Under the pieces are notes generated by a model. It was not told the DNA's origin, did not search any database, and was given only the letters and a program-made list of their open reading frames with translations. Shown here one piece after another: positions 7,018-47,729 of a stretch of DNA of 64,000 bases. The stretch lies in contig CAVVHS010000006.1 of the NCBI GenBank assembly GCA_963748215.1, forward strand, positions 128,001 to 192,000, given 5' to 3'. Numbering within the stretch: the stretch's first letter is position 1; each line of letters begins with the position of its first letter. This stretch comes from an uncultured Gammaproteobacteria bacterium. Its GTDB lineage: Bacteria; Pseudomonadota; Gammaproteobacteria; UBA9214. Both the position numbers and the translations under genes were made by a program.

Positions 7018-7332
7018 ATAATGGCCACGGAATCCACGGAAGAACACGGAAAAATCAAATGCAGGGTGCTTTTGCGTGCAGGAGCGCATCGCATGGTCAC
7101 TCTCGGCATGGCCCAGGCCAGTATCTCGACCGCTGCGCGGTCTCACCTTCTCCATGCCTCTCGTGACACTCGTACTTCCCTGTCATCGCGCAAACAGGAG
7201 GTGACCGGTTCGGCCGCATACGCGGTCCGCTCCTGCAGGCAGGGGTTCGGGAAAGCGCGCTGGATAATGGCTACGGAATGACGCAGAACGAACAAAATCA
7301 TTCCGTGTTCTACCGTGGATTCCGTGGCTATT
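7018..7332. repeat. CACGGAA-triad repeat copies: forward at 7018 (with REP-like tail), degenerate forward at 7264, inverted at 7301-7332
   Basis: ATAATGGCCACGGAATCCACGGAAGAACACGGAAA, which recurs at 10745, 22977 and within 32560-33055. Confidence 0.85.
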
Positions 7333-10656: not shown

Positions 10657-10828
10657 GTAGGGTGCGCTGTGTGCACCATTGCCGGTGTGTGAAACGCACC
10701 CTGCATTCTGTATGCCATGGCGTGAAAGGTGAAAGGTGGACTGCATAATGGCCACGGAATCAACGGAAGAACACGGAAACACTAAATGCAGGGCCCCGTT
10801 GTGTGCAGGAGCGCTTCGCAAGCGCGAT
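10657..10828. repeat. Composite repeat: inverted GTAG REP pair, GTGAAAG heptamers, CACGGAA triad, second REP
   Basis: GTAGGGTGCGCTGTGTGCACC...AAACGCACCCTGC; GTGAAAGGTGAAAG; ATAATGGCCACGGAATCAACGGAAGAACACGG; GCAGGAGCGCTTCGCAAGCGCGAT. Confidence 0.85.
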
Positions 10829-16951: not shown

Positions 16952-17056
16952 ATGTAATGCTGCCCCGTTCTGCCACTGTAAGCAAATCGGCATACTGGCT
17001 CGAAGACGCGACTTGACGCGCGCTTTCGCCGTCTTCGTTCTACAGTGCCTACACAG

Positions 17057-17325
17057 GTTCGCATCACCTGCATACAGTACGTAGGGTGCGTTTCACGCAC
17101 CGTTAATGGTGCGCATAGCGCACCCTACACCGGCTCTACCGTACTTCCATGTGTTCGCACCACCTGCATACAGTACGTAGGGTGCGTTTCACGCACCGTT
17201 AATGGTGCGCATAGCGCACCCTGCACCGGCTCTAACGTACTTCCATGAGTTCGCACCACCTGCATACAATACGTAGGGTGCGTTTCACGCACCGCTAATG
17301 GTGCACATAGCGCACCCTGCACCGG
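17057..17325. repeat. Tandem array of ~3 x 96-bp units, each with an inverted GTAG REP doublet
   Basis: GTAGGGTGCGTTTCACGCACC at 17081, 17177 and 17273, each followed by GGTGCRCATAGCGCACCCTRC. Confidence 0.92.
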
Positions 17326-17343
17326 TAATGGCCGCACGCAAGA

Positions 17344-19450: not shown

Positions 19451-19466
19451 GTCGCGATTCCTGTCC

Positions 19467-22145: not shown

Positions 22146-22166
22146 GGGTTTGATTCAGGGTTATGC

Positions 22167-22736
22167 TCATGAAGCGCTGTGTGTGGAGCGCCGCCGCCGG
22201 TACCAGTGCACCAGCCAGAGCAGGGTGCCGACTCCGATAATTGACGCCATCAGCGCGAGTTCATAGTGCTTGATGTCGCCCACCAGCACTTCCACGGCCT
22301 GGCCAAAATAGTAACCGGCGAGACCAAAACAGATGGCCCAGATGCCGGCGCCGAGCAGGTTGAGCAGGGAGAAGCGCAACCAGGAAACGTCACTCATGCC
22401 GATTGCGATGGGTGTCACCGTGCGCAGGCCATACAGAAAGCGGAACCCGAGGATAAGCAGCATCTGGTGTCGCTCCAGTTTATCCAATACCCGGTCCATG
22501 CCTGCAAGCCAGGCCGGGTGACGCGCCAGCAGGCCCTTGCCATGGCGCCGGCCGAGAAAGAAATAGAGTTGATCGCCGAACAGTGTTCCGCAAAATCCAC
22601 ACGCAATCACCCAGTCCAGCGACAGGTAACCCAGGTGCGCAACGACACCGCCCAGCACCATGACGGTTTCGCCTTCCAGGAAGGTGCCGACGAGGAGGAT
22701 CGGGTAGCCATAGCTTGTCAGCAATGATTCCAGCAT
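22167..22736 (-). CDS. DedA family membrane protein
   Basis: GTFLEGETV, GDQLYFFLGR, RFLYGLR. Confidence 0.92.
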   Translation of the reverse strand: MLESLLTSYGYPILLVGTFLEGETVMVLGGVVAHLGYLSLDWVIACGFCGTLFGDQLYFFLGRRHGKGLLARHPAWLAGMDRVLDKLERHQMLLILGFRFLYGLRTVTPIAIGMSDVSWLRFSLLNLLGAGIWAICFGLAGYYFGQAVEVLVGDIKHYELALMASIIGVGTLLWLVHWYRRRRSTHSAS

Positions 22737-22921: not shown

Positions 22922-23927
22922 TGTAGGGTGCGTTTTACGCACCGGCAGCGGTGCACGAAGTGCAGCCTACAAAAAATAATGGCCACGGAATCCACGGAAG
23001 AACACGGAAAAATAATCCTACCTCCTTCAGGCACACAAGAGCCGGTACATGAAGGAGCGCATCTCGTGCGCGATGATAATGGCCACGGAACCACACGGAA
23101 GGACACGGAAATGCGACCGTAGGGTGCGTTTTACGCACCGGGAACGGCGCCCGGGGTGCCTCCTGCAGCTGACGTGGGGCGTGAGAGGTGAGACGTGAGA
23201 CGTGAAAAGAAAAATGGCCACGGAAGCACACAGAAATACACGGAAAGGATGTAGGATGCACTCTGTGTACCATTGAGTAAGACGTGAAAGGTGAAACGTG
23301 AATTATGGGCGCGATGATAATGGCCACGGAATCCACGGAATAACACGAAAAAATTAATCAGCCACGGGGCGTAGGGTGCGTTTTACGCACCGGGAACGGC
23401 GCCCGGGGTGCCTCCTGCAGCTGACGTGGGGCGTGAGAGGTGAGACGTGAGACGTGAAAAGAAAAATGGCCACGGAAGCACACAGAAATACACGGAAAGG
23501 ATGTAGGGTGCACTCTGTGTACCATTGAGTAAGACGTGAAAGGTGAAACGTGAATTATGGGCGCGATGATAATGGCCACGGAATCCACGGAATAACACTC
23601 CTAAAAATTAATCAGCCGCGGGGTGCAGGGTGCGTTTTACGCACCGGGAACGGCGCCCGGGGTGCCTCCTGCAGCTGACGTGGGGCGTGAGAGGTGAGAC
23701 GTGAGACGTGAAAAGAAAAATGGCCACGGAAGCACACAGAAATACACGGAAAGGATGTAGGATGCACTCTGTGTACCATTGAGTAAGACGTGAAAGGTGA
23801 AACGTGAATTATGGGCGCGATGATAATGGCCACGGAATCCACGGAATAACACGAAAAAATTAATCAGCCACGGGGTGCAGGGTGCGTTTTACGCACCGGG
23901 AACGGCGCCCGGGGCGCCTCCTGCAGC
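22922..23927. repeat. Composite repeat region containing 3.2 tandem units of 252-254 bp
   Basis: Units start at 23119, 23371, 23625 and 23877 (GYAGGGTGCGTTTTACGCACCGGGAACGG) and are near-identical. Confidence 0.95.
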
Positions 23928-31085: not shown

Positions 31086-32471
31086 ATGGAACAGAAAGTC
31101 TCGTTCGATGCCGACCTGATCAGGCGTTATGACTACGCCGGCCCGCGTTACACCTCCTATCCCACGGCGGTGCAGTTTCACGAGGGTTTCACCGAGGCCG
31201 AGTACCGGACTCACGCCCTGGCCACCAATGACAGCGGCCGGCCCCTGTCGCTGTATTTTCATATCCCGTTCTGCGCGCGCCTGTGCTTCTACTGCGCCTG
31301 CAACAAGGTGGTGACCAAGAACCGGGCGCATGCGCTGCCCTATTTGCAGGACCTGCACCGGGAAATCGCCATGCAGGGCGAGCTGTTCGATAACGACCGG
31401 CGTGTCGACCAGCTGCACTGGGGCGGGGGTACGCCGACCTTTCTGAGCCACGAACAGATGACCGAGCTCATGCAGGTGACGGCCAGGCATTTCAATCTGC
31501 GCGGCGATGACACCGGCGAGTATTCAATAGAGGTGGATCCCAGGGAGGCCGATGCAGAGACCATCGCGCTGCTGCGCGGTATCGGTTTCAACCGCATCAG
31601 CCTGGGTGTGCAGGATCTCGAGGAGCGTGTGCAGCGGGCGGTCAACCGGCTGCAGCCCGAAGAGCAGACGCTCGCCATCATGGACGCGGCGCGCGCACAC
31701 GGCTTCAAGTCCATCAACACCGACCTGATCTACGGCCTGCCGTTCCAGAGCGTGGAATCCTTTGCGCGGACGCTGGATCGCGTGATCGAGTTCGGCCCGG
31801 ATCGCCTGTCCGTCTTCAACTACGCGCATATGCCGCACCTGTTCAAGCCGCAGCGGCGCATCATCGAGACGGACCTGCCGTCGCCTGCCGAGAAGCTGGA
31901 GATACTCCAGCTCACCATCGAACGCCTGACCGGCGCGGGGTATGTCTATATCGGCATGGATCATTTCGCCAGGCCCGATGACGAGCTGGCCCGGGCCCAG
32001 CAGGAGGGCAGGCTGTACCGGAATTTCCAGGGCTATTCGACCCATGCCGGGTGTGACCTGGTCGCCATGGGCATCACCTCGATCGGCAGCGTCGGAATTA
32101 CCTATGCGCAGAATGTGAAAACCCTCGAGGCGTATCACGAACGCATCGACAGCGGGCACCTGCCGGTGTACCGGGGCGTGGTGCTCAGTGCGGACGATGT
32201 CCTCAGAAGGAATGTCATCACAGACCTTATTTGTCATTTTTACCTGGATATACACGTCATCGAGGAAAAATATCAAATCGCGTTCAACGACTATTTCAGC
32301 AGCGTGATCGGGCAGCTCGAGGCCATGCAGGATGACGGCCTGCTGACCGTCGACGCACAGGCGATCAGGGTGCTGCCGGCCGGACGCCTCTTGATCAGGA
32401 ATATCTGCATGGCCTTCGACAGCTATCTCCAGGGCCGGCCGGAGAAAAAAGCCTTCTCCAGGGTGATCTAG
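31086..32471 (+). CDS. hemN: Oxygen-independent coproporphyrinogen III oxidase
   Basis: GPRYTSYPTA, YFHIPFCARLCFYCAC, RNFQGY, FSRVI. Confidence 0.97.
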   Translation: MEQKVSFDADLIRRYDYAGPRYTSYPTAVQFHEGFTEAEYRTHALATNDSGRPLSLYFHIPFCARLCFYCACNKVVTKNRAHALPYLQDLHREIAMQGELFDNDRRVDQLHWGGGTPTFLSHEQMTELMQVTARHFNLRGDDTGEYSIEVDPREADAETIALLRGIGFNRISLGVQDLEERVQRAVNRLQPEEQTLAIMDAARAHGFKSINTDLIYGLPFQSVESFARTLDRVIEFGPDRLSVFNYAHMPHLFKPQRRIIETDLPSPAEKLEILQLTIERLTGAGYVYIGMDHFARPDDELARAQQEGRLYRNFQGYSTHAGCDLVAMGITSIGSVGITYAQNVKTLEAYHERIDSGHLPVYRGVVLSADDVLRRNVITDLICHFYLDIHVIEEKYQIAFNDYFSSVIGQLEAMQDDGLLTVDAQAIRVLPAGRLLIRNICMAFDSYLQGRPEKKAFSRVI

Positions 32472-32559: not shown

Positions 32560-33055
32560 GTAGGAGCGCATCTTATGCGCGATAGATAATGGCCACGGAA
32601 GCACACGGAAGCACACGAAAATTACATGCAAGATGCGTCGAGACGTGAGACGTGAGACGTGAGTAGGGTGCGTTTTACGCACCGAACGGTGCACAAAGTG
32701 CACCCTACAAAAAATAAGGGCCACGGAATGCACGGAACAACACAGAAATGAGACCGTAGGGTGCGTTTTACGCACCGGCAGCGGTGCACGAAGTGCATCC
32801 TACAAAAATAAGGGCCACGGAATCCACGGAAGAACACGGAAAAATCAAATGCAAGACGCGTGAGACGTGAGACGAAGCTGTAGCACCAAACGGTGCACAA
32901 AGTGCACCCTACACCCTCTATTGAAGGTAGGAGCGCATCTCATGCGCGATCGATAATGGCCACGGAAGCGCATGGAATGACACGGAAAAATCAAATGCAA
33001 GACGCGTCGAGACGTGAGACGTGAGCATTAAATCGTAGGGTGCGCTGTGCGCACC
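32560..33055. repeat. Composite array of GTAG REPs, CACGGAA triads and GAGACGT heptamers
   Basis: About 15 modules in shuffled order, the same modules as at 22922-23927. Confidence 0.92.
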
Positions 33056-33222
33056 TGCAGGCGTGCATCAACGCACCCCGCATTCTATTCCCGCTCCCCG
33101 GCGCTCTCCTGAAGCGGTGGAAAATATCGGCCGCATGGCCGGTCGATCCGGGTTTGCCGTTGGATTATTCACCCTGTCCGGCTGTAACCCGTATCCCCCG
33201 GACAGAACCCGCAGCCGCCCGT

Positions 33223-34863
33223 TCAGTACTCCGGATAGAACATCAGGTCCGCTATCATTTGCTGCAGATCCTGCGGCTGTTCCGCGTCGGCCAGACCGGC
33301 ATCCCAGGCGGCACGCGCCACCTCCATGGCAATGGCGGTCGATACCCTGCGAATGTCGGTCAGGGGCGGGTACACCGTGCCCCTGGCAAGGTCCTGCCCG
33401 GAGACCATGGCCGCCAGGGCGCGAGCCGCCGCGAGGAACATGGCATCGCTGATGGTGCGCGCACGGCAGGCCAGTGTGCCGAGACCGATCCCGGGAAAGA
33501 CATAGGCATTGTTGCCCTGGCCCGGGCGCGAGATCCTGCCGTCGATCTCGACGGCGTCAAACGGGCTGCCGCTGGCGAACACCGCGCGCCCGTCACTCCA
33601 GCGGTAGGCCTGTTCGGCGGTACACTCGGCGCGCGAGGTGGGATTGGACAGTGCGAAAATCACCGGCCGTTCGTTGATCTGTGCCATCAGGCGGATGACC
33701 TGTTCGGTGAATATTCCGGGTGAGCCGGTCGCCCCGATCAGTACCTGGGGCCGCAGGTCGCGAATGGCGTCCACGAGACTGCGCGCGGGCACAGCGTGTG
33801 CGTAGTTGGCGAGATGCGCGGCGTGCGGGCCGTTGTCCTGCACTATCAGCCCGGAACGGTTCACGAACCACAGCCGGCTGCGCACCTGCCGTTTGTCCTG
33901 GCCGGCCTCGCATTGCGCGGCAACGATCAGGTCGGCGATCCCGGTGGCGGCGGAGCCGGCGCCGAGGAACAGGATGCGCTGGCCGGTGAAATCGGACCCG
34001 GTGATGCGGCACGCGGCCAGCAGGCCGGCCAGTACCACTGCAGCGGTGCCCTGGATGTCGTCGTTGAAGCACAGCACGCGTTCGCGGTAGCGATCCAGCA
34101 AGGCATAGGCGTTCGGTGTCAGGAAGTCCTCGAACTGGATCAGGGCAAGCGGGAACGCGTCCTGCACGGCCGCGACGAATTCGTCCACCAGTGACCGGTA
34201 GTCCGCGCCGCGCAGGCGCGGCCGGTCGATCCCGAGATAGAGCGGATCGCGGCGCAGGGTTTCGTTGTCGGTGCCGACGTCGAGCATCACCGGCATGCAT
34301 TGCTGCGGCGGAATGCCCGCGCAGGCGGTGTACAGCGCGAGCTTGCCGATCGGGATGCCCATGCCGTTGGCGCCCAGGTCGCCAAGCCCGAGGATGCGTT
34401 CGCCGTCGGTCACCACGATCAGGCGCACGTCCCGGGCCGGCCAGTTGTCCATGATGGTGCGTATCTGTCCGCGGTCCTGCGGGGTGATATAGAAACCGCG
34501 CGGCTGGCGGAAGATGTGCGCATATTCCTGGCAGGCCTGGCCGACCGTCGGCGTGTAGATCAGCGGCATGATCTCCTCGATGTGGTCGATCACCAGGCGG
34601 TAGAACAGACGCTCGTTGCGGTCCTGCAGGGCGAGCAGGAAGATGTAGCGTTCGATGTCATTTTCCTTGCGGCGCAGGTTGGCCAGTGCGCGTGCTTCCT
34701 GTGCCGCCAGGCTGGATACCCGCGCCGGCAGCAGGCCGCGCAGTCCGTAGCGGTCGCGCTCCGCCTCGGTAAATGCGGTACCCTTGTTGAATTCAGCTCG
34801 CTTCAGCAGGTCGTAGCCGCTCAGCAGCGGATGTAAAACCTGATGGTCGTCGGCCATGGCCAT
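33223..34863 (-). CDS. maeA: NAD(P)-dependent malic enzyme
   Basis: NKGTAFT, YTPTVG, TDGERILGLGDLG, FNDDIQGT, GAGSA, LSNPT. Confidence 0.95.
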   Translation of the reverse strand: MAMADDHQVLHPLLSGYDLLKRAEFNKGTAFTEAERDRYGLRGLLPARVSSLAAQEARALANLRRKENDIERYIFLLALQDRNERLFYRLVIDHIEEIMPLIYTPTVGQACQEYAHIFRQPRGFYITPQDRGQIRTIMDNWPARDVRLIVVTDGERILGLGDLGANGMGIPIGKLALYTACAGIPPQQCMPVMLDVGTDNETLRRDPLYLGIDRPRLRGADYRSLVDEFVAAVQDAFPLALIQFEDFLTPNAYALLDRYRERVLCFNDDIQGTAAVVLAGLLAACRITGSDFTGQRILFLGAGSAATGIADLIVAAQCEAGQDKRQVRSRLWFVNRSGLIVQDNGPHAAHLANYAHAVPARSLVDAIRDLRPQVLIGATGSPGIFTEQVIRLMAQINERPVIFALSNPTSRAECTAEQAYRWSDGRAVFASGSPFDAVEIDGRISRPGQGNNAYVFPGIGLGTLACRARTISDAMFLAAARALAAMVSGQDLARGTVYPPLTDIRRVSTAIAMEVARAAWDAGLADAEQPQDLQQMIADLMFYPEY

Positions 34864-35027: not shown

Positions 35028-35233
35028 CGTATATCATTCAATTGTGGGCTAACTAGTCATAGAAGCCCTGATTCGTTGAAAAATTTCCGTCATTGCGAGC
35101 GCGATGTACATGGATGTACAAGTGGCGCGTAAGGCATGGAGGAGGTGAAACCGGGAACCGGTTGAGAGACTGGCCTGGGCCATGCCGGGAGCGGCTAGTG
35201 CGGCAATCTCATGCCATGGAATCAGTTACTTAG

Positions 35234-35398
35234 GGAGGCTCTGATTAATTCGTCATTCCGGGCGTAGCCCGGACTTGATCCGGGGGGAGACCCGGAATCC
35301 AGGTGTTACAATTCAGGCCATTACTGGATTCCGGCCCCTGCCTTCGCAGGGGCAGGCTCTGAGCCGGAATGACGAGCATTGAATTAATCAGAGCTTCC
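35234..35398. mobile_element. IS5-like MITE carrying a CGTC-type REP doublet, nested in an older similar element (35061-35453)
   Basis: TIRs GGAGGCTCTGATTAATTC / GAATTAATCAGAGCTTCC (17/18 match); TTAG on both sides. Confidence 0.8.
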
Positions 35399-35484
35399 TT
35401 AGAGATTGCTTCGTCACTTTGATCCTTGCAATGTCGAATTAATCAGAGCGTCTTGAAAAATCAATCAGCGTCACGGGAGTCCAG

Positions 35485-37728
35485 ATGGCAACCAGTATTC
35501 ATTCGGTAACAACATCCGCAAAACCCGGTACCAAGCCGGCGACAAAGGATGCCGGGGCAGCAGGCACCGTCAAACCGGCGTGCAACATCGAGACGGACAG
35601 CCCGCAGTGTTACCTGAACCGGGAGCTGACCTGGCTCGAATTCAACCGCCGCGTAATGCATATGGCCGAGGACGAAGGCACGCCGCTGCTGGAACGCGTC
35701 AAGTATCTCGCCATCGTCAGCAGCAACATCGACGAGTTTTTCATGAAACGCATCGGCGGTCTGAAACAGCAGATCGCCGCGGGTATCCGCACACCGACTG
35801 TGGACGGGCGGACACCCTATGAACAGGTGATAGAGTGCCAGGCCGTGGTGCGCGATATCCACCAGCGGCAGAAGATTATCCTCGAACGCCTGCGTGAGCT
35901 GCTCAGGCATCATGATATTCGTATCGTGCCATATGCCGAACTGCCCGCGGATAAACAGGCGGCCCTTCGTGAAAACTTCAGCATCAATATATTCCCCCTG
36001 CTGACGCCACTGGCAATGGACCCGGGACACCCGTTCCCGTTTATCTCCAATCTCGCGCTGAACCTGCTGGTGACCCTGCGACACCCGGGTGGCAGTGCCA
36101 GCCATATAGCCCGTGTCAAGGTGCCGATCTCGGGGGATGTGGCGCCGCGCTTTATCAGTGTAGGCGATGGCAACACCTTCGTGACCCTGGATGATGTCGT
36201 CACGGCCAATATGGACATGCTGTTCCCGGGCATGGAGATTCTGTCCTGCGAGTTGTTCCGGGTGACCCGCAACGCCGTCGTGGAAGTCGATGAAGAAGAG
36301 GCGGATGACCTGCTGGAAATGATCGAATCCGAGCTGAGAGACCGCCATTTCGCACCGATCGTCCGCCTGCAGGTCGCGCATGGCATGAATCCCGTACATC
36401 GCGGCATGCTGGCCGCCGAGCTCGGGCTGGACGAGGAGGCGGACGTCTTCGAGGTCAATTCGCTCATGGGCATGCGCGACCTGTTCGAGATCGCATCCCT
36501 GGATATGCCGGAGCTGCACGATCCGGTGCATACCCCGATCGACCATACCCGCCTGGCGCATGACTCACGCAATATCTTCCACATCATTCGCGAGCACAAG
36601 GCACTGCTGCTGCAGCACCCCTATGAATCGTTTGCGACCAGCGTGGAGCGCTTCCTGCGCACCGCCAGCGAAGATCCCAAGGTGCTGGCGATCAAGATGA
36701 CGCTCTATCGCACCTCCGGGGAAGGCAAGGTCATAGAATCCCTGGTCCAGGCCGCCCTGAATGGCAAGCAGGTGGCGGTACTGGTCGAACTCAAGGCGCG
36801 CTTCGACGAGGCGAAGAACATCGGCTGGGCACGCCGACTCGAGCGGGTGGGTATCCACGTCACCTATGGTGTCGTCGGACTGAAGACGCACAGCAAGGTC
36901 ATTCTCGTGGTGCGCAAGGATTACAACGGTCTGCGCCGCTATGCGCACATCGGCACGGGCAACTACCATGCCGGTACCGCGCGAATGTACAGCGATCTCG
37001 GCATGCTGACCTGTGATCCGGACATTGCCCAGGACCTGACCGAATTGTTCAATTTCCTCACCGGCTATTCGCCACCGCCGCGTTACCGCAAGATACTTAC
37101 CTCGCCCTATGCCCTGAAAAAAGCGCTGCTCGAGAAAATCGAACGCGAGGTCAAAAACCACCGCCCCGAGTCGCCCGGTTTGATCCAGCTGAAGATGAAC
37201 GCACTCGAGGACGAGGACATCACCCGTGCGCTGTACCGTGCTTCCCAGGCGGGTGTCCGCATCGACCTGATCGTGCGGGATACCTGCCGGTTGCGGCCAC
37301 GTGTCCCGGGCCTGAGCGAGACGGTTCGCATTATCAGCGTGGTCGGACGTTTTCTGGAACACACCCGCATCTACTATTTCAAAAACAACGGCAGTGAAGA
37401 GTATTTCATCGGTTCCGCGGACCTGATGAAGCGTAACCTGGAAAGCCGAGTGGAAGTCGTCGCGCCGGTCGAGGAGCCGAAACTGCGCCAGGAGCTGCGC
37501 CTGATCCTGGATGCGCAGCTGTCCAGTCGCAGGAATGTCTGGGAAATGCAGTCCGATGGCAGCTACCTCGAGGTGCCGGACAGTGGCGAGAAGGAGTCAC
37601 GCAGTTGCCAGGACATCTTCATCGAACTGGCACAGAAACGTCAGGCGGCTGCACTCAAGCATCGGCAGGCCAAGCTGCGCAAGAAACTGCTGACGTACTT
37701 CCACAAGCGCGTGCAGAGCAACAAGTAA
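35485..37728 (+). CDS. ppk1: Polyphosphate kinase 1
   Basis: NRELTWLEFNRRV, HPFPFIS, HPYESF, ELKARFDE, LKTHSK, GRFLEH, SADLM. Confidence 0.97.
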   Translation: MATSIHSVTTSAKPGTKPATKDAGAAGTVKPACNIETDSPQCYLNRELTWLEFNRRVMHMAEDEGTPLLERVKYLAIVSSNIDEFFMKRIGGLKQQIAAGIRTPTVDGRTPYEQVIECQAVVRDIHQRQKIILERLRELLRHHDIRIVPYAELPADKQAALRENFSINIFPLLTPLAMDPGHPFPFISNLALNLLVTLRHPGGSASHIARVKVPISGDVAPRFISVGDGNTFVTLDDVVTANMDMLFPGMEILSCELFRVTRNAVVEVDEEEADDLLEMIESELRDRHFAPIVRLQVAHGMNPVHRGMLAAELGLDEEADVFEVNSLMGMRDLFEIASLDMPELHDPVHTPIDHTRLAHDSRNIFHIIREHKALLLQHPYESFATSVERFLRTASEDPKVLAIKMTLYRTSGEGKVIESLVQAALNGKQVAVLVELKARFDEAKNIGWARRLERVGIHVTYGVVGLKTHSKVILVVRKDYNGLRRYAHIGTGNYHAGTARMYSDLGMLTCDPDIAQDLTELFNFLTGYSPPPRYRKILTSPYALKKALLEKIEREVKNHRPESPGLIQLKMNALEDEDITRALYRASQAGVRIDLIVRDTCRLRPRVPGLSETVRIISVVGRFLEHTRIYYFKNNGSEEYFIGSADLMKRNLESRVEVVAPVEEPKLRQELRLILDAQLSSRRNVWEMQSDGSYLEVPDSGEKESRSCQDIFIELAQKRQAAALKHRQAKLRKKLLTYFHKRVQSNK

Positions 37729-38052
37729 TAAGGGCGTTTGACAATCGGTTGTCGGTACATCTCGACCGGCAGGCATGGTTAATCTTCTAGCCGGCCCGTT
37801 TGCATGTCCACGCTTGCCGCCGTGCAGGAGGATCTACGAGACGGATCGCCTCGGCCTGGGGAGGGAATATAAAAGAGAGATCATCGATGACTGCGAGCAG
37901 CGTGATCGAACTGTCCCCGGGGAATGGAAGCCGACCAGAAAATCCATTGCAGCCCTGGCGCAGTCAGATCCGTCGGTTGCCAGTAAAATCTTCATTATCA
38001 GGTTCCTTGTTTACCCGTGTTGTCTTGCCTGTCAGTTCCGCGCGGTATGACA

Positions 38053-38380
38053 TCATGCCGGATGTGCGCCACCGATGTTCAGGACATATTGCATAACGAT
38101 GTACGTAAAATACACGCCCAGCAACCACACGCCCTGCCAGCGGTAAAATACTCCGGCCGTGTTCATCGAGATAAATACCCGGAATGAGTACAGTATGATG
38201 AGCATGGCGGGGAAGTGGAAGTAGAAGAAATTGTCCGGTATCGCCAGCGGTGCCGTGGCAGTGGCCGCACCGATAACGAACAGGCAATTGAGGACATCGG
38301 CGCCGACAATATTGCCAACCGTGATCTCGGGATAACCCTTGCGCACCGCGGCAATCGCAGTCGTCAGTTCCGCAACGAGG
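38053..38380 (-). pseudogene. Ca2+/Na+ antiporter (YrbG-like), C-terminal fragment
   Basis: ELTTAIAAVRKG...GNIVGADVLN alpha-repeat; begins right after the upstream gene's stop; no N-terminus. Confidence 0.75.
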
Positions 38381-39094
38381 TCAGACGGCGGGCGCGCTGG
38401 TCAGGTGGTCGGCGTCAGCATCATCACCCGGGACCGGTGGGACGCTGATCGTTACCGGACCGTTTGACCAGGGCACCTTGATGCTGCCCGAACGCAGGAA
38501 CCCCGATTTCTTGCCAAGCTCATCGTAGCGTGTGCAGTTGCCGTCCCGGTCGAGGGTGAAATCCCCGATGTAGCGGTGCGAAACCTTCTGTTTTAGCTGG
38601 CTGGCGTAATCAAGGCCGAGAAAATGACTGACGAAGCCGCGGATGACGCCGGCATGCACGACCAGCAATATCGTGCTGTCAGGATGGCGTGCATTCTGTG
38701 ACAGCAGGAAATCGACGCTGCGCTTCTGCATCTGGCGGAAGCTTTCGCCTTCGGGGTAGACAAAGTCCGGGTCCTTCTTGTGTTGCGGGAGATGCTTCGT
38801 GACCCACTGCTTGCTTTTGTTGTACAGCGCACCGTAATTGACTTCATTCAGCTCCGCCGCATCGTGCACACAGAGGATGCTGTAATTGCGGGCATAGTGC
38901 ATGGCCGTGCGGCGTGCGCGTTCGAGGTGGCTGGAATAGACGCGATCGAAGCTGATTTCAAGCTCGCGCAGGCGGCCATCGATGTAGGCGATGTCGTCTC
39001 CCCAGTCCTTCGCGCGTGGTGCATCGCCCCAGCCCATGATCCGGCCGGAGGCATTCAGGAGGGTCTTGTAGTGCCTGACGACTATCGCGCGCAT
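38381..39094 (-). CDS. Histidine phosphatase (phosphoglycerate mutase superfamily)
   Basis: VVRHYKT (RHG variant), SSHLERARRT, LNEVNYG, PEGES, VVHAGVI. Confidence 0.88.
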   Translation of the reverse strand: MRAIVVRHYKTLLNASGRIMGWGDAPRAKDWGDDIAYIDGRLRELEISFDRVYSSHLERARRTAMHYARNYSILCVHDAAELNEVNYGALYNKSKQWVTKHLPQHKKDPDFVYPEGESFRQMQKRSVDFLLSQNARHPDSTILLVVHAGVIRGFVSHFLGLDYASQLKQKVSHRYIGDFTLDRDGNCTRYDELGKKSGFLRSGSIKVPWSNGPVTISVPPVPGDDADADHLTSAPAV

Positions 39095-39373
39095 ATTCAT
39101 CAAGTTAGCAAGTCAGGCGCGGCTTGTAAAAACATACCGACCGGTTGAAGCAATGCTGCGGGTGGCATTGCACCTCGCAGGCGTCACTGGCTGGATGCCA
39201 AGCGATTGAATAATATGGGCTTAAGTGGTGAATGTGCGGCTGCCCGCCCGGTAGGGGCGCGTCCGGTGCGGCCGCATGAAGAAAATGCCTGTCAAGCCGA
39301 ATTGCTAATGTACTATCGTCAGCGATAATCCGATTGTACCCCGCATTTGACGGGATCCGGCAAGGTGTCGCAT

Positions 39374-40564
39374 ATGGCAAAAACCGTTGTTATCAATCAG
39401 CCCGATGGCGACCGTACACCTTTTTTGCGCGGCATCCTCGTGCAATCGCTGATGAATGTCGGACTGCAATTCGACGAGGCCTACCCGCTGGCGCAGAAGG
39501 TACGCGACGAACTGCGCGACACCGAGGAAATCACCAGCACCGATCTGAAAAAGAAGGTGGCCGGGTTGCTGGAGGCACGGTTTGGCCGGAACCGGCGCAA
39601 AACATATGAAACACGGCCGGCTGACGAAACCGATGTCGTGGTGCATACGCCGACTCGCAGCGAGCCGTTTTCCGCCGGTCTGCTGGCCCATTCACTGGAA
39701 AGCTGCGCGATCGAACCGGATATCGCCCACGAGGGCGCGCGCAAGGTGTACGCATCCCTGCAGAAAACCGGGCACCGGGAAATCAACCACAAGACCCTGC
39801 GCAAGCTGATTTACCAGTGTCTGAAGGATCATTGTTCCCCTGAGTCTGCGGACCGCTATCTCTCGTGGCGCAGGTTCCAGAACAGCGGCGATCCGCTGAT
39901 CCTGCTGATCGGTGGTGTGACCGGCGCCGGCAAGAGCACCATTTCCTCGGAGGTGGCCTACCGGCTGGATATCGGTCGCATCCAGTCCACGGATATGATG
40001 CGCGAAATCATACGCGCCTACCTGACGCCCGAGGCGGTGCCGACGCTCGGTTATTCGAGCTTCGAGGCCTGGCGTGGCCTGGCCTCGCCGCTAGATGAGC
40101 AGAGCGGTGAAACCGAAAATCCGGTGATTGCCGGGTTTCTTTCCCAGTTCACTACCATCAAGCCGGCGCTGGTCGCCGCCATCGGCCGCGCAGTCAAGGA
40201 ACAGCACGACCTGATCATCGAGGGGGTGCATATCGTGCCCACCATGCTGGGCCTGGAGGATGCACGAAAACAGGCCATCGTCGTACCGCTCATGCTGGCA
40301 ACCATGGAAAAGTCGGCGCTGGAAAAGCAGCTCAAGCGCCGCGGCCGCGAGAAGAGCGGGCGGCGGGCATCGCGTTACCTGAAACACATCGATGATATCT
40401 GGGAGCTGCAGTCCTACCTGTTGAGCGAGGCCGACAACGCCGGTGTTCCCATCATCACCAACTGGCACATCGAGACCACCGTGCGCGAAGTGCTCAATCT
40501 GGTCATGGCCAAGGTCATGAAACGCTACCCGCCAAAATTCAACGACCTGGACTGGGAAAGCTAG
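39374..40564 (+). CDS. 2-phosphoglycerate kinase-like P-loop protein with two N-terminal ATP-cone-like domains
   Basis: PFLRGILVQSL and PFSAGLLAHSL repeats; YLSWRR...LILLIGGVTGAGKSTI, STDMMRE, SSFEAW, IIEGVHIVP. Confidence 0.85.
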   Translation: MAKTVVINQPDGDRTPFLRGILVQSLMNVGLQFDEAYPLAQKVRDELRDTEEITSTDLKKKVAGLLEARFGRNRRKTYETRPADETDVVVHTPTRSEPFSAGLLAHSLESCAIEPDIAHEGARKVYASLQKTGHREINHKTLRKLIYQCLKDHCSPESADRYLSWRRFQNSGDPLILLIGGVTGAGKSTISSEVAYRLDIGRIQSTDMMREIIRAYLTPEAVPTLGYSSFEAWRGLASPLDEQSGETENPVIAGFLSQFTTIKPALVAAIGRAVKEQHDLIIEGVHIVPTMLGLEDARKQAIVVPLMLATMEKSALEKQLKRRGREKSGRRASRYLKHIDDIWELQSYLLSEADNAGVPIITNWHIETTVREVLNLVMAKVMKRYPPKFNDLDWES

Positions 40565-40725
40565 CCCGGGATTTGCACGGGGCTACCGTGCCGCTATGCC
40601 GCTAAAATCAGCGCCCATGGCTTTCATCTCCCGCAAATCGGTATAGAATCGACCGCTGTTTAAAAAAATCAATCAGCCCGGTCAGCCGCATCCGCTGTCA
40701 TGACCGGCAGTTCAGGGGGCAAACC

Positions 40726-41205
40726 ATGGCAACGGCGCCAGCAACAAATCCGATACTCGTGCCTGTCGACTTTTCGCCGGATTCGGAAGCGGCTCTTGCC
40801 TGTGCCGCCGAACTTTCCACGCTGTTCAACGCTCCCTTGCTGGTCGTGCACGTCGTGCATGATCCGGGCGAGGCGCCCGGTTACTACGCAATCAAGGGCC
40901 ACAACAAGCACTTGCAGAAAATGGAGGACGTCGCTGCCGGTATGCTCAAGGAATTCATGAAATCGTTTTCCGAGGCGCACCCCGACCTGGTTGCTATCAG
41001 TACGGCTGAAACCAGTCTGGTCACCGGTCTGCCGGTCAACCGTATTCTCGAACTCGCCGACAAGTCCGCGGCGCGCATGATCGTGATGGGCAGCCAGGGA
41101 CGCACCGGGCTGGCGCGCGCGCTGCTGGGTTCCAAGGCCGAGCAGGTCGTGCGCCTGGCGCATATCCCGGTGACGATCGTCAAGTCTGACGAAAAACACG
41201 ACTAG
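40726..41205 (+). CDS. Universal stress protein
   Basis: ILVPVDFS, IVMGSQGRTG, LGSKAEQVV. Confidence 0.93.
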   Translation: MATAPATNPILVPVDFSPDSEAALACAAELSTLFNAPLLVVHVVHDPGEAPGYYAIKGHNKHLQKMEDVAAGMLKEFMKSFSEAHPDLVAISTAETSLVTGLPVNRILELADKSAARMIVMGSQGRTGLARALLGSKAEQVVRLAHIPVTIVKSDEKHD

Positions 41206-41365
41206 GAGCCTGTCGGACTTAGGTGTTCGTAGCGAGGCGAGTGGGAAAGGGAGAGCAAATGATCACGATTTTGAGGCGCATAGTGGTCCTACGTAACGAG
41301 AAATCGGGGACATTTGGGCCGCTTTCCCGCCGCCGCAGTAGAATCATCCTAAGTCCGACAGGCTC
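41206..41365. mobile_element. 160-bp MITE with perfect 18-bp TIRs and CTAG target duplication
   Basis: CTAG-GAGCCTGTCGGACTTAGG ... CCTAAGTCCGACAGGCTC-CTAG. Confidence 0.88.
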
Positions 41366-41393
41366 CTAGGGCAGCCAGGGAAGGAGAATCGAT

Positions 41394-43208
41394 ATGCCGG
41401 AAATGCACAGCCGCAGTCAGCTTGCACGGGCATGGCGTCAGACCGGGATGCTGCTGCTCGCTGCTGCAATCCTGCTGGCGGCAGCGCCGTCATGGGCTGC
41501 GGACGAGGCGGCGCTGGAAATGAACTGGGGCGGCATGGCCATGAACCTGCTGGGGGGGCTGGCGCTGTTCCTGTTCGGCATGGAACAGATGGCCGATGCC
41601 CTCAAGGCCGTCGCCGGCGAGCGCATGAAGATCGTGCTGGCCCGGTTGACCACCAACCGTTTCATGGGCGCGCTGACCGGCGCCTTCGTCACCGCGATCA
41701 TCCAGTCCTCGTCGGTCACCACGGTGCTGGTCGTCGGTTTCATCTCGGCCGGACTGATGTCCATGGCCCAGTCCATCGGCGTCATCATGGGCGCCAACAT
41801 CGGCACCACCATCACCGCCCAGATCGTTGCCTTCAAGGTTACCAAGGCCGCGCTGCTGATGGTTGCCGCCGGTTTCGCCATGCTGTTCTTCTCCTCCAAT
41901 GACAAGATCAAGCACTACGGCGGCATGCTCATGGGGCTGGGTCTGATCTTTTTCGGCATGAGCGTGATGAGCGACGCCATGTACCCGTTGCGCGCCTACC
42001 AGCCGTTCCTGGACCTGATGACGCAGATGGCGAACCCGTTGATCGGCATCCTGGTCGCGGCCCTGTTCACCGCCCTGGTGCAGTCGTCCTCGGCCACCAC
42101 GGGTATCGTCATCGTCATGGCCAGCCAGGGCTTCATCACGCTGCCCGCGGGTATCGCGCTGGCCTTCGGTGCCAACATCGGCACCTGCGTGACGGCGATG
42201 CTGGCCGCGATCGGCAAGCCCCGGGAAGCGGTCCGCGCCGCTGTCGTGCACGTACTGTTCAATGTCTTCGGCGTGCTGGCCTGGGTCGGCCTGATCGGCT
42301 GGCTGGCGGAGTTCGTCACCGCCATCTCGCCGGCCCATCCGGAACTGTCGGGAACCGCGCGCCTGGCCGCCGACACGCCGCGGCAGATCGCCAATGCGCA
42401 CACCTTCTTCAATATCGCGAATACCTTGCTGTTCATCGGTTTCACCGGCCAGCTGGCGCGGCTGGTCGAATGGCTGGTTCCGGACAAGCCGCTCGTGGAG
42501 GGGGCTGTTGCCGAGCCGCGCTACCTCGATGATTCGCTGTTCGAGACGCCATCGATCGCGCTCGACCGGGTGCGCCTGGAGATCGGTCATATCGGGGACC
42601 GGGTGCGGGACATGCTGGACCAGATCATGCCGGCGATCCTCGGCGGTGACCGTTCCGCGCTGCGCGACGTGGCCAGGATCGATGATGATGTCGATGTCCT
42701 GCACGGACATGTCGTCACCTACCTGGGGAAGATCAGTCGCAAGGAACTGACCGAAGACCAGACGCATCAATTCGTCAACCTGATGGCGGCTGCCAATGAC
42801 CTGGAGAACATCGGGGACGTGGTAGAAACCGACCTCGTACACCTGGGTAACCAGCGCATCAGTGAAGGGGTTTCGATCAGCCCGTCGACGCGGCAGGTGC
42901 TGACCGAGGTGCACAAGGCGGTTACGGCGGCGACGGACCTGGCAATCAGGGCCGTTGCCGAAAACAACCCGGATGCGGCACGCGAGGTGATCGGCATGAA
43001 AGAGGCTATCGGTGAGCTGGCGCAATCCGCGGCCATGCACCAGATCAAGCGCCTGGTCGCTGAAGAGCCGAACCGGCTCGCGGCCTACACTATCGAGATG
43101 GACATTATCGAGAAACTGAAGCGCACCTACTACTTCGCCAAGCGCATGGCGAAAACCCTCGACGTAGCGGTCGAGGAGCGCGCGGAGGAGGCGGAGGCGG
43201 CCGCCTGA
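41394..43208 (+). CDS. Na+/Pi cotransporter with C-terminal PhoU-like domains
   Basis: Two QSSS motifs, GANIGTT and GANIGTC, DLENIGD. Confidence 0.93.
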   Translation: MPEMHSRSQLARAWRQTGMLLLAAAILLAAAPSWAADEAALEMNWGGMAMNLLGGLALFLFGMEQMADALKAVAGERMKIVLARLTTNRFMGALTGAFVTAIIQSSSVTTVLVVGFISAGLMSMAQSIGVIMGANIGTTITAQIVAFKVTKAALLMVAAGFAMLFFSSNDKIKHYGGMLMGLGLIFFGMSVMSDAMYPLRAYQPFLDLMTQMANPLIGILVAALFTALVQSSSATTGIVIVMASQGFITLPAGIALAFGANIGTCVTAMLAAIGKPREAVRAAVVHVLFNVFGVLAWVGLIGWLAEFVTAISPAHPELSGTARLAADTPRQIANAHTFFNIANTLLFIGFTGQLARLVEWLVPDKPLVEGAVAEPRYLDDSLFETPSIALDRVRLEIGHIGDRVRDMLDQIMPAILGGDRSALRDVARIDDDVDVLHGHVVTYLGKISRKELTEDQTHQFVNLMAAANDLENIGDVVETDLVHLGNQRISEGVSISPSTRQVLTEVHKAVTAATDLAIRAVAENNPDAAREVIGMKEAIGELAQSAAMHQIKRLVAEEPNRLAAYTIEMDIIEKLKRTYYFAKRMAKTLDVAVEERAEEAEAAA

Positions 43209-43211
43209 ACG

Positions 43212-44492
43212 TCATGTGCCGGATTGCGGCGGCGGGTTATCCGCCGGCGCGGCAGTCTCGTCCCCGGCGATCCGCCTGATGCTGACCTGCTCGATGCGGC
43301 GCGGGGTGGCCGAACGTATCGTGACCTCGAGTCCATCGATCATGAACCTGTCGTCCGGGGCCGGAATGTTCTCGGAATGGGTCAATATCCAGAGATTCAC
43401 CCGGTCTGTCGGTTTTCCCGGCAGCTCGATCCCGAAATAGTCCTCGACCACCCGCAACTCGGTGGCACCCTGTACCAGCAGTTCGTTTACCGAGACGCCG
43501 GTTGTGCCGGCGGGCCCCTCGTCGCTTTCGTCGTAGATCTCTCCGACCAGTTCCTCCATCAGGTCTTCCAGTGTGACCAGCCCCCTGACCACGCCATGCT
43601 CGTCGACGACGATGGCGAAAATCTGTTTGCTGCGCCGGAATTTCGCGAACAGCTCGTCGATCGGCTCATACTGTTGTGCGAACAGCGGCTCATGAGCCAG
43701 GTCGCGCAGCGAGGCATCGAGCAGGCCCTTGTCGATCGCGCCCAGCAGATCGCGCAGGTGCAATACCTTGTACAGCCGGTCCCGGTGCTGTTCGTAGATA
43801 GGAATACGGGAATAGGGCGCCTCCACCACTGCCGACAGCACATCACGAACGGTCTGGCTGCCTTCCAGCGAAAAGACCGCGGTAAGCGGCGTCATCACGT
43901 CACGTACCTTCAGGTCGTTGAAAGCGAATACGCGCTCGATCAGCTCGCGTTCGCTGTGTTCGATGGTGCCTTCCCGTTCCCCGTGCTGCAGCATGCTGAT
44001 GAATTCCGATTCGGTCACGATCGGATCCCCTTCGTGGCTGCTCATGCCGTGGATCCAGGTTGTGAACCTGCCAAAAATCCATACCAGCGGGTAGATCAGG
44101 CGCATGAATCCCAGCAGTGGCACGGCGATAAACAGTGAAACCCGCTCGGAGTAGCGCGTGGCGAGGCTTTTCGGCGTGATCTCGCCGAATACCAGCACCA
44201 GCACGGTCAGTACCCCGACCGCCACGCCGGGGCCGGCGCTGCCGAGCCAGCGCGTGGCCACCACGGTAGCCAGTACGGAGGCTGCGATGTTGACGAGATT
44301 GTTACCGATCAGGATAGTGGTCAGCATGCGAGAGGGGTCTTTTTTCAACCGGTACAGCGCAGCCGCGCCGCGCCGGCCTTCACGGACCAGGCCCTCGACC
44401 CGCCCGATGGACAGGCTCACCAGGGCCGTTTCGGAACCCGAAAAGACGCCCGACAGGATCAGCAGTAATAACAGGGCGAGCGGTTCAGCCAT
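43212..44492 (-). CDS. CNNM/CorB-type membrane protein (DUF21-CBS-CorC)
   Basis: FSGSETAL, GNNLVNI, GEITPK, YSRIP, VTLEDLMEELVGEIYDE. Confidence 0.93.
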   Translation of the reverse strand: MAEPLALLLLLILSGVFSGSETALVSLSIGRVEGLVREGRRGAAALYRLKKDPSRMLTTILIGNNLVNIAASVLATVVATRWLGSAGPGVAVGVLTVLVLVFGEITPKSLATRYSERVSLFIAVPLLGFMRLIYPLVWIFGRFTTWIHGMSSHEGDPIVTESEFISMLQHGEREGTIEHSERELIERVFAFNDLKVRDVMTPLTAVFSLEGSQTVRDVLSAVVEAPYSRIPIYEQHRDRLYKVLHLRDLLGAIDKGLLDASLRDLAHEPLFAQQYEPIDELFAKFRRSKQIFAIVVDEHGVVRGLVTLEDLMEELVGEIYDESDEGPAGTTGVSVNELLVQGATELRVVEDYFGIELPGKPTDRVNLWILTHSENIPAPDDRFMIDGLEVTIRSATPRRIEQVSIRRIAGDETAAPADNPPPQSGT

Positions 44493-44719
44493 GCATAAGA
44501 TCTCTTGTGTCCGGTAGCAATTGAAATGATCGCCGGTTTTTTATCATCACCGGTAATGATTCTCGTTCAGTTGACGTAGATCATATCCAGTACGCTGACA
44601 GATGCAGTAGTTTACTACCGAATAAATATGCAACCATCTGTATTTTTTCTATAAATGAGCGTCGGTCCCGGTGGAGCTATCAGTGCCGGACGGATTTCAT
44701 TAAGCCACCCGGAGGAATT

Positions 44720-45592
44720 ATGCTTCACAAATCCTGTTTCATCGCACTGCTGGCCGGTACCTTGCTGGTTGGGACGGCCGCACAGGCACGCACCGAAATC
44801 CAGAACAAGGGCTCGGATACGCTGGTCAATGTGGCCCAGGCGTGGGCGGAAGCCTACCAGAAGGTCGACCCCGACGTGGCGATTGCGGTATCCGGCGGCG
44901 GTTCCGGAACGGGCATCGCCGCCCTCATCAACGGCACGGTGGATATTGCCAATGCCAGCCGCCAGATGAAAGACAAGGAGATGAAACTGGCCGAAGAGCA
45001 TGGCCACAAGCCGGTGGAGTTTATCGTGGGCTACGACGCACTGGCCGTATTCATCAACAATGCCAACCCGATCACCAAACTGTCCATCGCGCAGCTGCAA
45101 GAGATCTTCGGTCGTGGTGGCAAGACGACGAAGTGGACGGATATCGGTGTCACCGTGCCGGGCTGCAAGGACCAGGAGATTATCGTGGTCAGCCGGCAAA
45201 ACAATTCCGGCACCTATGCCTACTTCAAGGATGCCGTACTGGGCAAGAAGGGGAAATACCGCCAGGGCACCCTGGACATGCACGGTTCCAAGGACGTTGT
45301 CGACCTGGTCGAGAAAACGCCCTGTGCGATCGGCTACAGTGGCCTGGCCTACGCCACCGAGCACCTGAAGATGGTCTGCATAGAAAGCGGTGAGGATGGC
45401 AGCTGTGTGAATCCGAGCGTGGAAACGGCCAGTGACAACACCTACCCCATTGCACGGCCGCTGTTCATGTATACCAGTGGTGAACCGGCCGGTGCGGTCA
45501 AGACCTATCTTGACTGGATATTCAGTGACGAGGGTCAGTGCATCATCAGCAACAAGGGCTATGCGCCGGTGAAGAAGGTCACTTGCCAGTAA
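44720..45592 (+). CDS. pstS: Phosphate ABC transporter substrate-binding protein
   Basis: KGSDT, GGGSGTG, ANASR, SRQNNSGT, YPIARPL. Confidence 0.95.
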   Translation: MLHKSCFIALLAGTLLVGTAAQARTEIQNKGSDTLVNVAQAWAEAYQKVDPDVAIAVSGGGSGTGIAALINGTVDIANASRQMKDKEMKLAEEHGHKPVEFIVGYDALAVFINNANPITKLSIAQLQEIFGRGGKTTKWTDIGVTVPGCKDQEIIVVSRQNNSGTYAYFKDAVLGKKGKYRQGTLDMHGSKDVVDLVEKTPCAIGYSGLAYATEHLKMVCIESGEDGSCVNPSVETASDNTYPIARPLFMYTSGEPAGAVKTYLDWIFSDEGQCIISNKGYAPVKKVTCQ

Positions 45593-45710
45593 ACGGCGGC
45601 TGAGTGTGTCACTCGTCAGCTATCCGGCCCCTTTCTGCCTGCGCACTAACCGTGTATTCTCGCGCTGACTGTTTGCATTCTGAACGCGCAACCTGGCGGG
45701 AGTCATTACC

Positions 45711-47724: not shown

Positions 47725-47729
47725 CCATC

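What the first reader, a model, noticed from the sequence alone, without database searches (positions are those of the whole stretch)
32560..33055. Intergenic arrays assembled from three unrelated repeat modules in shuffled order
Seen: the modules are R1 (GTAGGGTGCGTTTTACGCACC, with inverted partner R1r), R2 (GTAGGAGCGCATCTYATGCGCGAT), N (GGCCACGGAA-n-CACGGAA-n-CACGGAAA) and H ((GAGACGT)n). The order here is about R2-N-H-R1-R1r-N-R1-R1r-N-H-R1r-R2-N-H-R1. The same modules occur in other orders at 7018, 10657 and 22922, nearly always in the same orientation. Known: GTAG REPs are substrates of RAYT (TnpA-REP) HUH nucleases. From recollection, not verified: N-type and H-type repeats flank GxxExxY and four-helix-bundle genes. 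Inference: these may be empty recognition or recombination sites of a shared cassette-like system. No cognate enzyme lies in this window.
Basis: partly seen in the sequence, partly recalled or inferred. Interest (0 to 1): 0.75.

Follow-up and report, generated by a model that had tools for sequence, protein, structure and literature searches.

The report
Stacked ends of small mobile elements
This repeat patch between two genes is a stack of leftover ends from three kinds of small mobile DNA elements, one known (REP repeats) and two apparently undescribed, whose gene-carrying versions elsewhere hold a tiny DNA-cutting enzyme or a small helical protein.

Summary
The order is not a free shuffle: the array is four diverged copies of R2-N-H-R1-R1r with deletions, and its junctions recur in other gammaproteobacterial genomes. 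R1 and R2 are GTAG-type REPs. N is the terminal arm of an inverted-repeat element: 116 of 152 N arms in other genomes face an inverted partner, and 2 of 100 such brackets hold a GxxExxY gene, a minimal PD-(D/E)XK nuclease fold. H-type heptamer arrays are the arms of four-helix-bundle (TIGR02436) genes. In several genomes the elements nest symmetrically as H[N..N]H; the window keeps only tandem left arms. Empty orthologous gene junctions carry no arms, so the modules are element ends rather than waiting recombination sites. One near-identical plasmid pair does swap an H-armed cassette for a REP dimer at the same junction. No cognate gene is in the window, and enzyme action is inferred, not shown. 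Verdict: a BIME-like mosaic that points to two REPtron-like element families I found in none of 10 literature searches.

The parts
32560..32583 (+). R2 copy 1: GTAG foot, 2 unpaired nt, 6-bp hairpin, 3-nt tail (GTAG-1/2-type REP layout)
   Evidence: layout described in PMC3733652
32589..32621 (+). N arm 1 (triple CACGGAA unit): left terminal arm of GxxExxY-type elements, unpaired here
32638..32662 (+). H heptamer array 1: left-arm type of four-helix-bundle cassettes
   Evidence: compare
32663..32708 (+). R1/R1r inverted REP dimer (REPIN-like hairpin, z -4.5)
32717..32748 (+). N arm 2
32756..32803 (+). R1/R1r dimer 2 (z -3.6); 42 nt identical to the 22923 array
32811..32842 (+). N arm 3; part of a 41-nt exact match to the 7021 locus
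32860..32875 (+). H array 2
32892..32912 (-). R1r whose R1 partner is largely deleted
32927..32950 (+). R2 copy 2; 32926-32969 (the R2-to-N junction) is a 44-nt exact match to L033
32956..32988 (+). N arm 4
33007..33022 (+). H array 3
33035..33081 (+). R1 variant plus degenerate R1r, closing the array
31086..32471 (+). Left flank: hemN, oxygen-independent coproporphyrinogen III oxidase, reading into the array
   Evidence: TIGR00538 628 bits, cut-off 325
33223..34863 (-). Right flank: malic enzyme, convergent with hemN
   Evidence: NF010052 728 bits, cut-off 326
7021..7331 (.). Sister locus: complete inverted N...N bracket (about 250 nt inside, no gene), the usual non-autonomous form
10657..10828 (+). 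Sister array R1-R1r-H-N-R2
17039..17326 (+). Sister array: three 96-nt units, each with one R1 dimer, without N or H
22923..23927 (+). Sister array with a 252-254 nt unit in about 3.2 tandem copies (R1, H, N, truncated R2)

Best explanation
The array is a fossil stack of element ends. Three families of REPtron-like elements share one design: a small gene between two repeat arms, with many gene-less arm pairs elsewhere. They are RAYT with GTAG REPs (R1, R2; known), the GxxExxY PD-(D/E)XK nuclease with triple-unit arms (N), and the four-helix-bundle protein with heptamer arms (H). SHOWN: the arm-gene associations, the gene-less inverted pairs, symmetric nesting of one family inside another, presence and absence at orthologous junctions, and junctions shared between genomes. 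INFERRED: the elements insert at gene ends and into each other's centres; one side of a nest was then lost and the remaining left-arm block was tandemly amplified, partly deleted and copied between loci by recombination, giving a polar BIME-like mosaic. INFERRED, least secure: the GxxExxY nuclease, acting in trans from elsewhere in the genome, cuts at or near N arms or their hairpin and spreads them by repair-based copying without a target duplication; the mover of H arms is unidentified.
For: 116 of 152 exact N arms have an inverted partner within 300 nt downstream, against 9 of 152 upstream and 2.1% in background windows (14 arms with short flanks were dropped). Arms co-vary within a pair (73 pairs, 0 of 2000 within-genome shuffles reach the score). 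Both GxxExxY genes found in the 127 loci sit inside N brackets (L041, L009). Gene-first test: 3 of 8 plasmid GxxExxY genes have inverted triple-unit arms and 2 of 8 have clear direct arms. 7 of 10 plasmid four-helix-bundle genes have inverted arms (one marginal) and 2 of 10 direct arms. Nests H[N..N]H occur in L016, L054 and L081, whose genome also has the four-helix-bundle gene with the same heptamer (L025), and in L073, L116 and L062. GxxExxY model pLDDT 95; best matches Cas4 SSO0001 (Z 8.5, rmsd 4.5, 101 aligned) and Hjc (Z 7.8, rmsd 3.0, 85 aligned); E36 and D65 invariant, E75-L-K77 and Q90/Y94 at 90% or more in 75 sequences. In 45 of 120 long homologs the domain is internal, for example in frame inside LepA and RecG with repeat-like peptides on both sides. 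Order grammar: R2>N 8 of 8, H>N 11 of 16, N>R1 19 of 31; 0 of 5000 shuffles reach the observed mutual information.
Against: No enzyme activity or movement was shown. 98 of 100 N brackets are gene-less, and no cognate gene is in the window; the rest of the genome was not available. Only L041 and L009 pair a gene with the window's exact N type, and no gene was found with the window's exact H heptamer (L025 has a related one). 3 of 8 plasmid GxxExxY genes had weak, one-sided or control-level arms, and 4 cassettes have direct rather than inverted arms, which the model does not explain. Control genes reached inverted scores of 53, 38 and 35 (the 53 and 35 border four-helix-bundle cassettes). The four-helix-bundle protein is Avd-like with no known catalytic activity (lack of catalysis recalled). 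The 17 arrays in the grammar test come from the window and 4 related genomes and are not independent. The enrichment background was mostly coding DNA. Loss of right arms is inferred only.
Confidence: 0.66

Rival explanations
1. RAYT does all the moving: it cuts and rejoins single-stranded DNA at the REPs and drags neighbouring N and H arms along. GxxExxY and four-helix-bundle genes are passengers whose arms are not their substrates.
For: Every unit of the focal array contains a REP. TnpA-REP cleaves and rejoins REPs (PMC6006769). N pairs show no target duplication. 24 of 167 N arms have a GTAG hairpin within 200 nt against 5.7% background.
Against: 143 of 167 N arms, and 50 of 60 genomes, show no GTAG hairpin nearby (the finder misses bulged REPs, as it did at E. 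coli rayT). Arm type follows gene family. No PF01797 or PF05635 fusion appears among the 120 long GxxExxY homologs listed. This rival may still be right for the building of this particular array.
Confidence: 0.17
2. One reading: the modules are empty recognition or recombination sites of one shared, integron-like cassette system.
For: Strict polarity in three window arrays (15 of 16 N arms on +). Heptamer arrays lie near 22 of 167 N arms in 10 of 60 genomes against 1.4% background. Two plasmids 99.3% identical carry either an H-armed cassette or a nested REP dimer at the same cas6-cas4 junction.
Against: Bare junctions (cas6-cas4 L153, fabD-fabG L154, nrdB-nrdA L155; 74-86% identical relatives) have no arms. 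Genes sit between two arms of one type, not between mixed direct sites. I saw no shared core among R, N and H. No integrase hit among the 47 ORFs scanned, and no genes lie inside the window arrays. In the swap, 4 SNPs fall in the last 71 nt of cas6 against 2 in the 450 nt before, which ordinary recombination or co-conversion would explain.
Confidence: 0.1
3. The array is kept by the host as a 3' RNA structure (terminator or mRNA stabiliser) between convergent genes, and its mobile origin is incidental.
For: It lies between convergent hemN and malic enzyme genes; the whole region folds better than shuffles (z -4.25).
Against: Only 3 weak terminator-like sites against 1.2 expected, and no Rfam match. 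Sister arrays lie between co-directional genes (7021, 10657) and apparently divergent ones (22923). This does not explain the gene-arm associations, but it is not exclusive of the best explanation.
Confidence: 0.05
4. Assembly artefact from collapsed or chimeric repeats.
For: The region is repeat-rich, and nearby genes look frameshifted (phosphorylase, glucan-branching-like and zwf pieces).
Against: The copies are diverged rather than identical, and the same junctions with the same linkers occur in independent assemblies.
Confidence: 0.02

Closest known systems
GTAG REPs, REPINs and REPtrons with RAYT/TnpA-REP (PMC3733652, PMC3116915, PMC6006769)
   Same: R1 and R2 are GTAG-footed hairpins; R1 forms inverted dimers; tandem clusters with flanks and insertion of one REPIN into or next to another are described. 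A RAYT flanked by the same R1 head and stem was found (L149).
   Different: N and H are not palindromic on their own and have no GTAG foot; their cognate genes are not HUH enzymes.
BIMEs (E. coli) and NIMEs (Neisseria mosaic intergenic arrays)
   Same: Mosaic intergenic arrays of REPs with conserved extra motifs, in tandem.
   Different: Here the extra motifs can be traced to the arms of gene-bearing elements. Details of BIME and NIME motifs are recalled or seen only in search listings.
TIRtrons/TIRYTs (PMC3733652)
   Same: A single gene between terminal inverted repeats that also form a dispersed gene-less family.
   Different: The gene is a PD-(D/E)XK nuclease or an Avd-like helical bundle rather than a Y1 transposase; the arms are short tandem units.
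Bacterial MITEs
   Same: Short non-coding elements bounded by inverted repeats; 12-640 nt between the arms.
   Different: No target-site duplication detected; no DDE transposase linked.
PD-(D/E)XK mobile nucleases: homing endonuclease I-Ssp6803I, Rpn/YhgA, TnsA (all recalled, not tested)
   Same: Same fold superfamily, linked to DNA mobility.
   Different: PF13366 is listed as function unknown (PMC3424549); it is a stand-alone 120-aa protein with repeat arms and in-frame insertions, with no intron or intein seen.
Cyanobacterial STRR heptamer repeats (recalled)
   Same: Tandem heptamers in intergenic DNA; cyanobacterial four-helix-bundle genes carry such arms.
   Different: No paper in the library search tied them to this gene family.

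Membership tests
GTAG REP / REPIN (R1, R2) | GTAG foot followed by a short hairpin, extragenic | tested here: met
GTAG REP / REPIN (R1, R2) | Inverted dimer folding as one hairpin | tested here: met
   R1/R1r z -4.5 and -3.6; R2 occurs as singlets
GTAG REP / REPIN (R1, R2) | Same REP type flanks a RAYT gene | tested here: inconclusive
   R1-like head and stem flank RAYT homologs in 3 of 5 fetched loci, of 26 records hit, with longer loops than R1; no R2-flanked RAYT was seen
GTAG REP / REPIN (R1, R2) | Cognate RAYT in the same genome | not testable with these tools
   none in the window by tblastn with E. coli RayT; rest of genome unavailable
BIME-type mosaic | REPs alternating with conserved non-REP motifs in tandem units | tested here: met
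BIME-type mosaic | Enterobacterial BIME extra motifs and host-factor binding (recalled) | not tested
   no call
TIRtron/TIRYT | Gene between inverted repeats that also form a dispersed family | tested here: met
   N and H elements
TIRtron/TIRYT | Enclosed gene is a Y1 HUH transposase | tested here: not met
   genes are TIGR04256/PF13366 and TIGR02436
Classical MITE | Terminal inverted repeats, non-coding interior | tested here: met
   98 of 100 N brackets are gene-less for the families searched
Classical MITE | Target-site duplication | tested here: not met
   longest shared direct word in outer flanks 4.22 vs 4.20 shuffled, 98 pairs; a 2-3 nt duplication could be missed because the element ends are not fixed
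Integron cassette array (attC) | ORFs between directly repeated sites | tested here: not met
   no family hit for ORFs overlapping the arrays; spacers are under 60 nt in the focal array
Integron cassette array (attC) | attC box structure and integron integrase | tested here: inconclusive
   no integrase hit among 47 of 183 ORFs scanned; no attC model was available
CRISPR array | One repeat with unique, regularly sized spacers | tested here: not met
   spacers are themselves repeated modules; no Rfam match
PD-(D/E)XK nuclease (GxxExxY) | Fold and conserved acidic and lysine active-site residues | tested here: met
PD-(D/E)XK nuclease (GxxExxY) | Cleavage of N arms | not testable with these tools
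   needs biochemistry

The most novel reading that the evidence does not exclude
GxxExxY (PF13366) is the mobiliser of a widespread, undescribed class of selfish elements: a 120-residue PD-(D/E)XK nuclease that recognises its own triple-unit inverted arms and spreads gene-less arm pairs and in-frame insertions without target duplication. Four-helix-bundle genes with heptamer arms form a second class. Together with RAYT/REP they make a nested community of minimal elements that insert into and replace one another at gene junctions, so that REP/RAYT is one of several enzyme-plus-repeat systems behind bacterial short repeats.
Probability: 0.45. Interest if true: 0.85.

Novelty: new variant of a known kind. 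Interest (0 to 1): 0.7.

Why it matters
The origin of most short bacterial intergenic repeats is unexplained, and RAYT is the main enzyme tied to them. This locus links two large protein families of unknown function (PF13366 GxxExxY, and TIGR02436/PF05635, which filled 7995 of 8000 candidates scored) to specific repeat arms. It gives a named enzyme and a named substrate that can be tested directly. It would also explain in-frame insertions in LepA and RecG and heptamer arrays in cyanobacteria, and could yield a very small site- or structure-specific nuclease.

Tried and rejected
blastn of the array against plasmids gave 2 chance 23-nt hits. No GxxExxY match in phage records. No Rfam match in the window. 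Of 7 ORFs picked by a G..E..Y regex only L041 was a real GxxExxY, and the regex missed L009, found later by tblastn. No RAYT was found in the 127 N-selected loci or the window. None of the fetched loci is orthologous to the window arrays (matches to the arrays were 69-90% identical over at most 308 nt), so filled and empty states of the window loci are untested. No target duplication. My REP finder returned nothing at E. coli rayT, L147 and L151, so its negatives are weak. R2 patterns were mis-specified and were corrected. Source records and flanks for the named GxxExxY homologs could not be looked up, so gene-and-arm co-occurrence in Marinobacter, Tamilnaduibacter and Oceanisphaera rests on names and one matching contig length. 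Metagenome and viral contig collections stayed unchecked. CRISPR, integron and artefact readings were considered and rejected as above. Polarity relative to replication or transcription was not resolved with only three polar arrays.

Full report
Observation. The stretch 32560-33081 lies between convergent hemN and malic enzyme genes. Sister loci are at 7021, 10657, 17039 and 22923. No Rfam family matches. tblastn with RayT, two four-helix-bundle proteins and two GxxExxY proteins finds nothing in the window.

Order. The focal array is four N-anchored units, each a subsequence of R2-N-H-R1-R1r; a 94-nt period is also detected. I parsed 17 arrays: 4 in the window (only the first 510 nt of the 22923 array) and 13 from 8 loci of 4 gammaproteobacterial MAGs, chosen because they held two or more module types. 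R2 is followed by N in 8 of 8 cases (one at 179 nt), H by N in 11 of 16 and N by R1 in 19 of 31. Mutual information with dimers collapsed is 1.08 against 0.46, with 0 of 5000 shuffles reaching it. These arrays are related, so this shows inherited junctions, not independent events. Linkers are shared across genomes, including a 44-nt exact match across the R2-to-N junction with L033. Some junction variety is real: both N-to-H and H-to-N occur.

What N is. Of 152 distinct arms with adequate flanks (14 dropped), 116 have an inverted partner within 300 nt downstream and 9 upstream; background is 2.1%. The 100 distinct brackets enclose 12-640 nt. The two arms of a pair resemble each other more than other arms of the same genome (73 pairs, 0 of 2000 shuffles). 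No target duplication was detected. Two brackets are filled, each by a GxxExxY gene (L041, TIGR04256 130 bits; L009, PF13366 109 bits), and these are the only GxxExxY genes found in the 127 loci. In the reverse test, all 8 plasmid records hit by protein were fetched: 3 have inverted triple-unit arms, 2 clear direct arms, and 3 are weak, one-sided or at control level. Among 120 close homologs, a few have N-terminal extensions that read as translated N arms, such as P0031. In the window 13 of 16 N arms are unpaired and only the 7021 locus is a full bracket.

The protein. An AlphaFold model from 75 sequences (pLDDT 95.4) matches PD-(D/E)XK nucleases: Cas4 SSO0001 Z 8.5 (rmsd 4.5, 101 aligned), BpuSI Z 8.4, Hjc Z 7.8; the top Foldseek hit is SSO0001, E 6e-5. 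These Z scores are tied and give the fold, not the function. Active-site-type residues are conserved. PMC3424549 lists PF13366 as function unknown with multiple transfers (passages). Among the 120 longer homologs listed, the domain is internal in 45, N-terminal in 46 and C-terminal in 29. In the 32 I printed, it sits in frame inside LepA, RecG, GatB and others, flanked by repetitive peptides that I read as translated arms (an inference, since no DNA was available). That is the behaviour of a mobile insert.

What H is. Two four-helix-bundle genes (TIGR02436, with a weak Avd hit) lay in the loci. L025 is bracketed by perfect inverted heptamer arrays related to H and sits between two genes that I recognise from recall as gmd and fcl. 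L041 has degenerate arms (inverted score 40, direct 42). Of 36 plasmid records hit I fetched 10, chosen for diversity: 7 have inverted arms (scores 36-66, the 36 within the control range), 2 direct and 1 one-sided. Thirty-six control genes scored 13-53 inverted, with the 53 and the 35 bordering such cassettes. In the genome of L025 the same heptamer brackets N pairs symmetrically, as H[N..N]H (L016, L054, L081), and so it does in L073, L116 and L062. A planctomycete locus shows a mosaic of many N-like and heptamer variants (L013). No gene with the window's exact H unit was found.

R1 and R2. Both are GTAG-footed hairpins, and R1 dimers fold as one long hairpin. R2 has the two unpaired bases and 3-nt tail described for GTAG-1 and GTAG-2 (PMC3733652). 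Of 5 non-E. coli RayT homolog loci fetched, 3 are flanked by R1-like REPs, L149 by several dimers with the same head and stem.

Filled and empty sites. Three bare orthologous junctions have no arms: cas6-cas4, fabD-fabG and nrdB-nrdA, in relatives 74-86% identical. Arms therefore seem to travel with the element. One pair 99.3% identical is informative: Anabaena 90 has an H-armed cassette at cas6-cas4, while Dolichospermum UHCC 0315A has a nested GTAG-REP dimer at the same place, each supplying the ends of the neighbouring genes. SNPs cluster just left of the junction, as expected for recombination or co-conversion. The window's own loci could not be compared between strains.

Mechanism. Most likely three element families of one design nest inside each other at gene ends. 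A one-sided remnant of such a nest was amplified in tandem, partly deleted and copied among loci, giving these polar arrays. Tandem REPIN clusters and REPINs inserted into or next to others are described (PMC3116915, passages). That GxxExxY itself mobilises N arms is the best guess from fold and anatomy but is untested. RAYT-driven carriage is the main rival, and the mover of H arms is unknown. Direct-arm cassettes and the strict polarity remain unexplained.

Literature. Ten searches were made. GxxExxY occurs in 3 papers, once in each of the 2 listed (listings only). No listing tied these arms to either family. I read the abstract, background and part of the results of PMC3733652 (2 of 8 parts, plus passages) and passages of PMC3116915, PMC3424549 and PMC6006769; other papers were seen as listings only. 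I did not open figures or supplements, which hold the REP consensus tables, so R1 and R2 are not assigned to a numbered family. Subscription journals and database curator comments were not searchable, so prior notice of these links cannot be excluded. BIME and NIME details, STRR, Rpn, TnsA and I-Ssp6803I are recalled.

Verdict. A real feature: a BIME-like mosaic whose non-REP modules are arms of two apparently undescribed REPtron-like elements. New variant of a known kind, interest 0.7.

Noticed in passing
window 35080-35460: Nested set of CGTC-type REP hairpins inside another inverted-repeat bracket, between the malic enzyme gene and ppk1; similar CGTC-type elements sit inside N brackets in L017, L038 and L122.
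   Followed up: partly
window 7094-7192 and 35098-35198; L068 3810-3888: A further repeat of about 90 nt (82% complementary between the two window copies) fills the 7021 N bracket and recurs in another MAG.
   Followed up: no
L141 822-1667 vs L152 523-792; L140; L153: The cas6-cas4 junction is a hotspot: an H-armed four-helix-bundle cassette, a nested REP dimer, a direct-armed cassette or a bare 23-nt gap in four cyanobacterial plasmids.
   Followed up: yes
P0277, P0288, P0289, P0317, P0329, P0351 (LepA); P0275, P0299, P0300, P0303, P0332 (RecG); P0347 (GatB): GxxExxY domain inserted in frame at recurrent positions of housekeeping proteins, several named from Patescibacteria, with repetitive flanking peptides.
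   Followed up: partly
L128, L135 (GxxExxY); L137, L140 (four-helix bundle): A minority of cassettes have direct rather than inverted arms, with the upstream arm flipped; some homolog N-termini suggest the same.
   Followed up: no
L085, L125, L019, L056, L071, L060: Another inverted-repeat family (not N, H or REP) brackets or borders N pairs, a further nesting layer.
   Followed up: no
L013, L047, L108: Ca. Laterigemmans baculatus has long polar mosaics of several N-like triple-unit variants and heptamers.
   Followed up: no
window 7386-11323: Glucan phosphorylase, a CBM48 gene and zwf appear in pieces or truncated; either frameshifts from sequencing or pseudogenes.
   Followed up: no
window 17344-22736: A VirJ-family hydrolase, MprF and DedA cluster on the minus strand next to two of the arrays.
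   Followed up: no
window 35485-52576: Phosphate and polyphosphate gene cluster: ppk1, Na/Pi symporter, pst transporter, PPK2-family transferase.
   Followed up: no
window 41199-41369; L045, L121: A stretch of about 170 nt, 84-85% identical to two other MAG loci and not one of the four modules.
   Followed up: no
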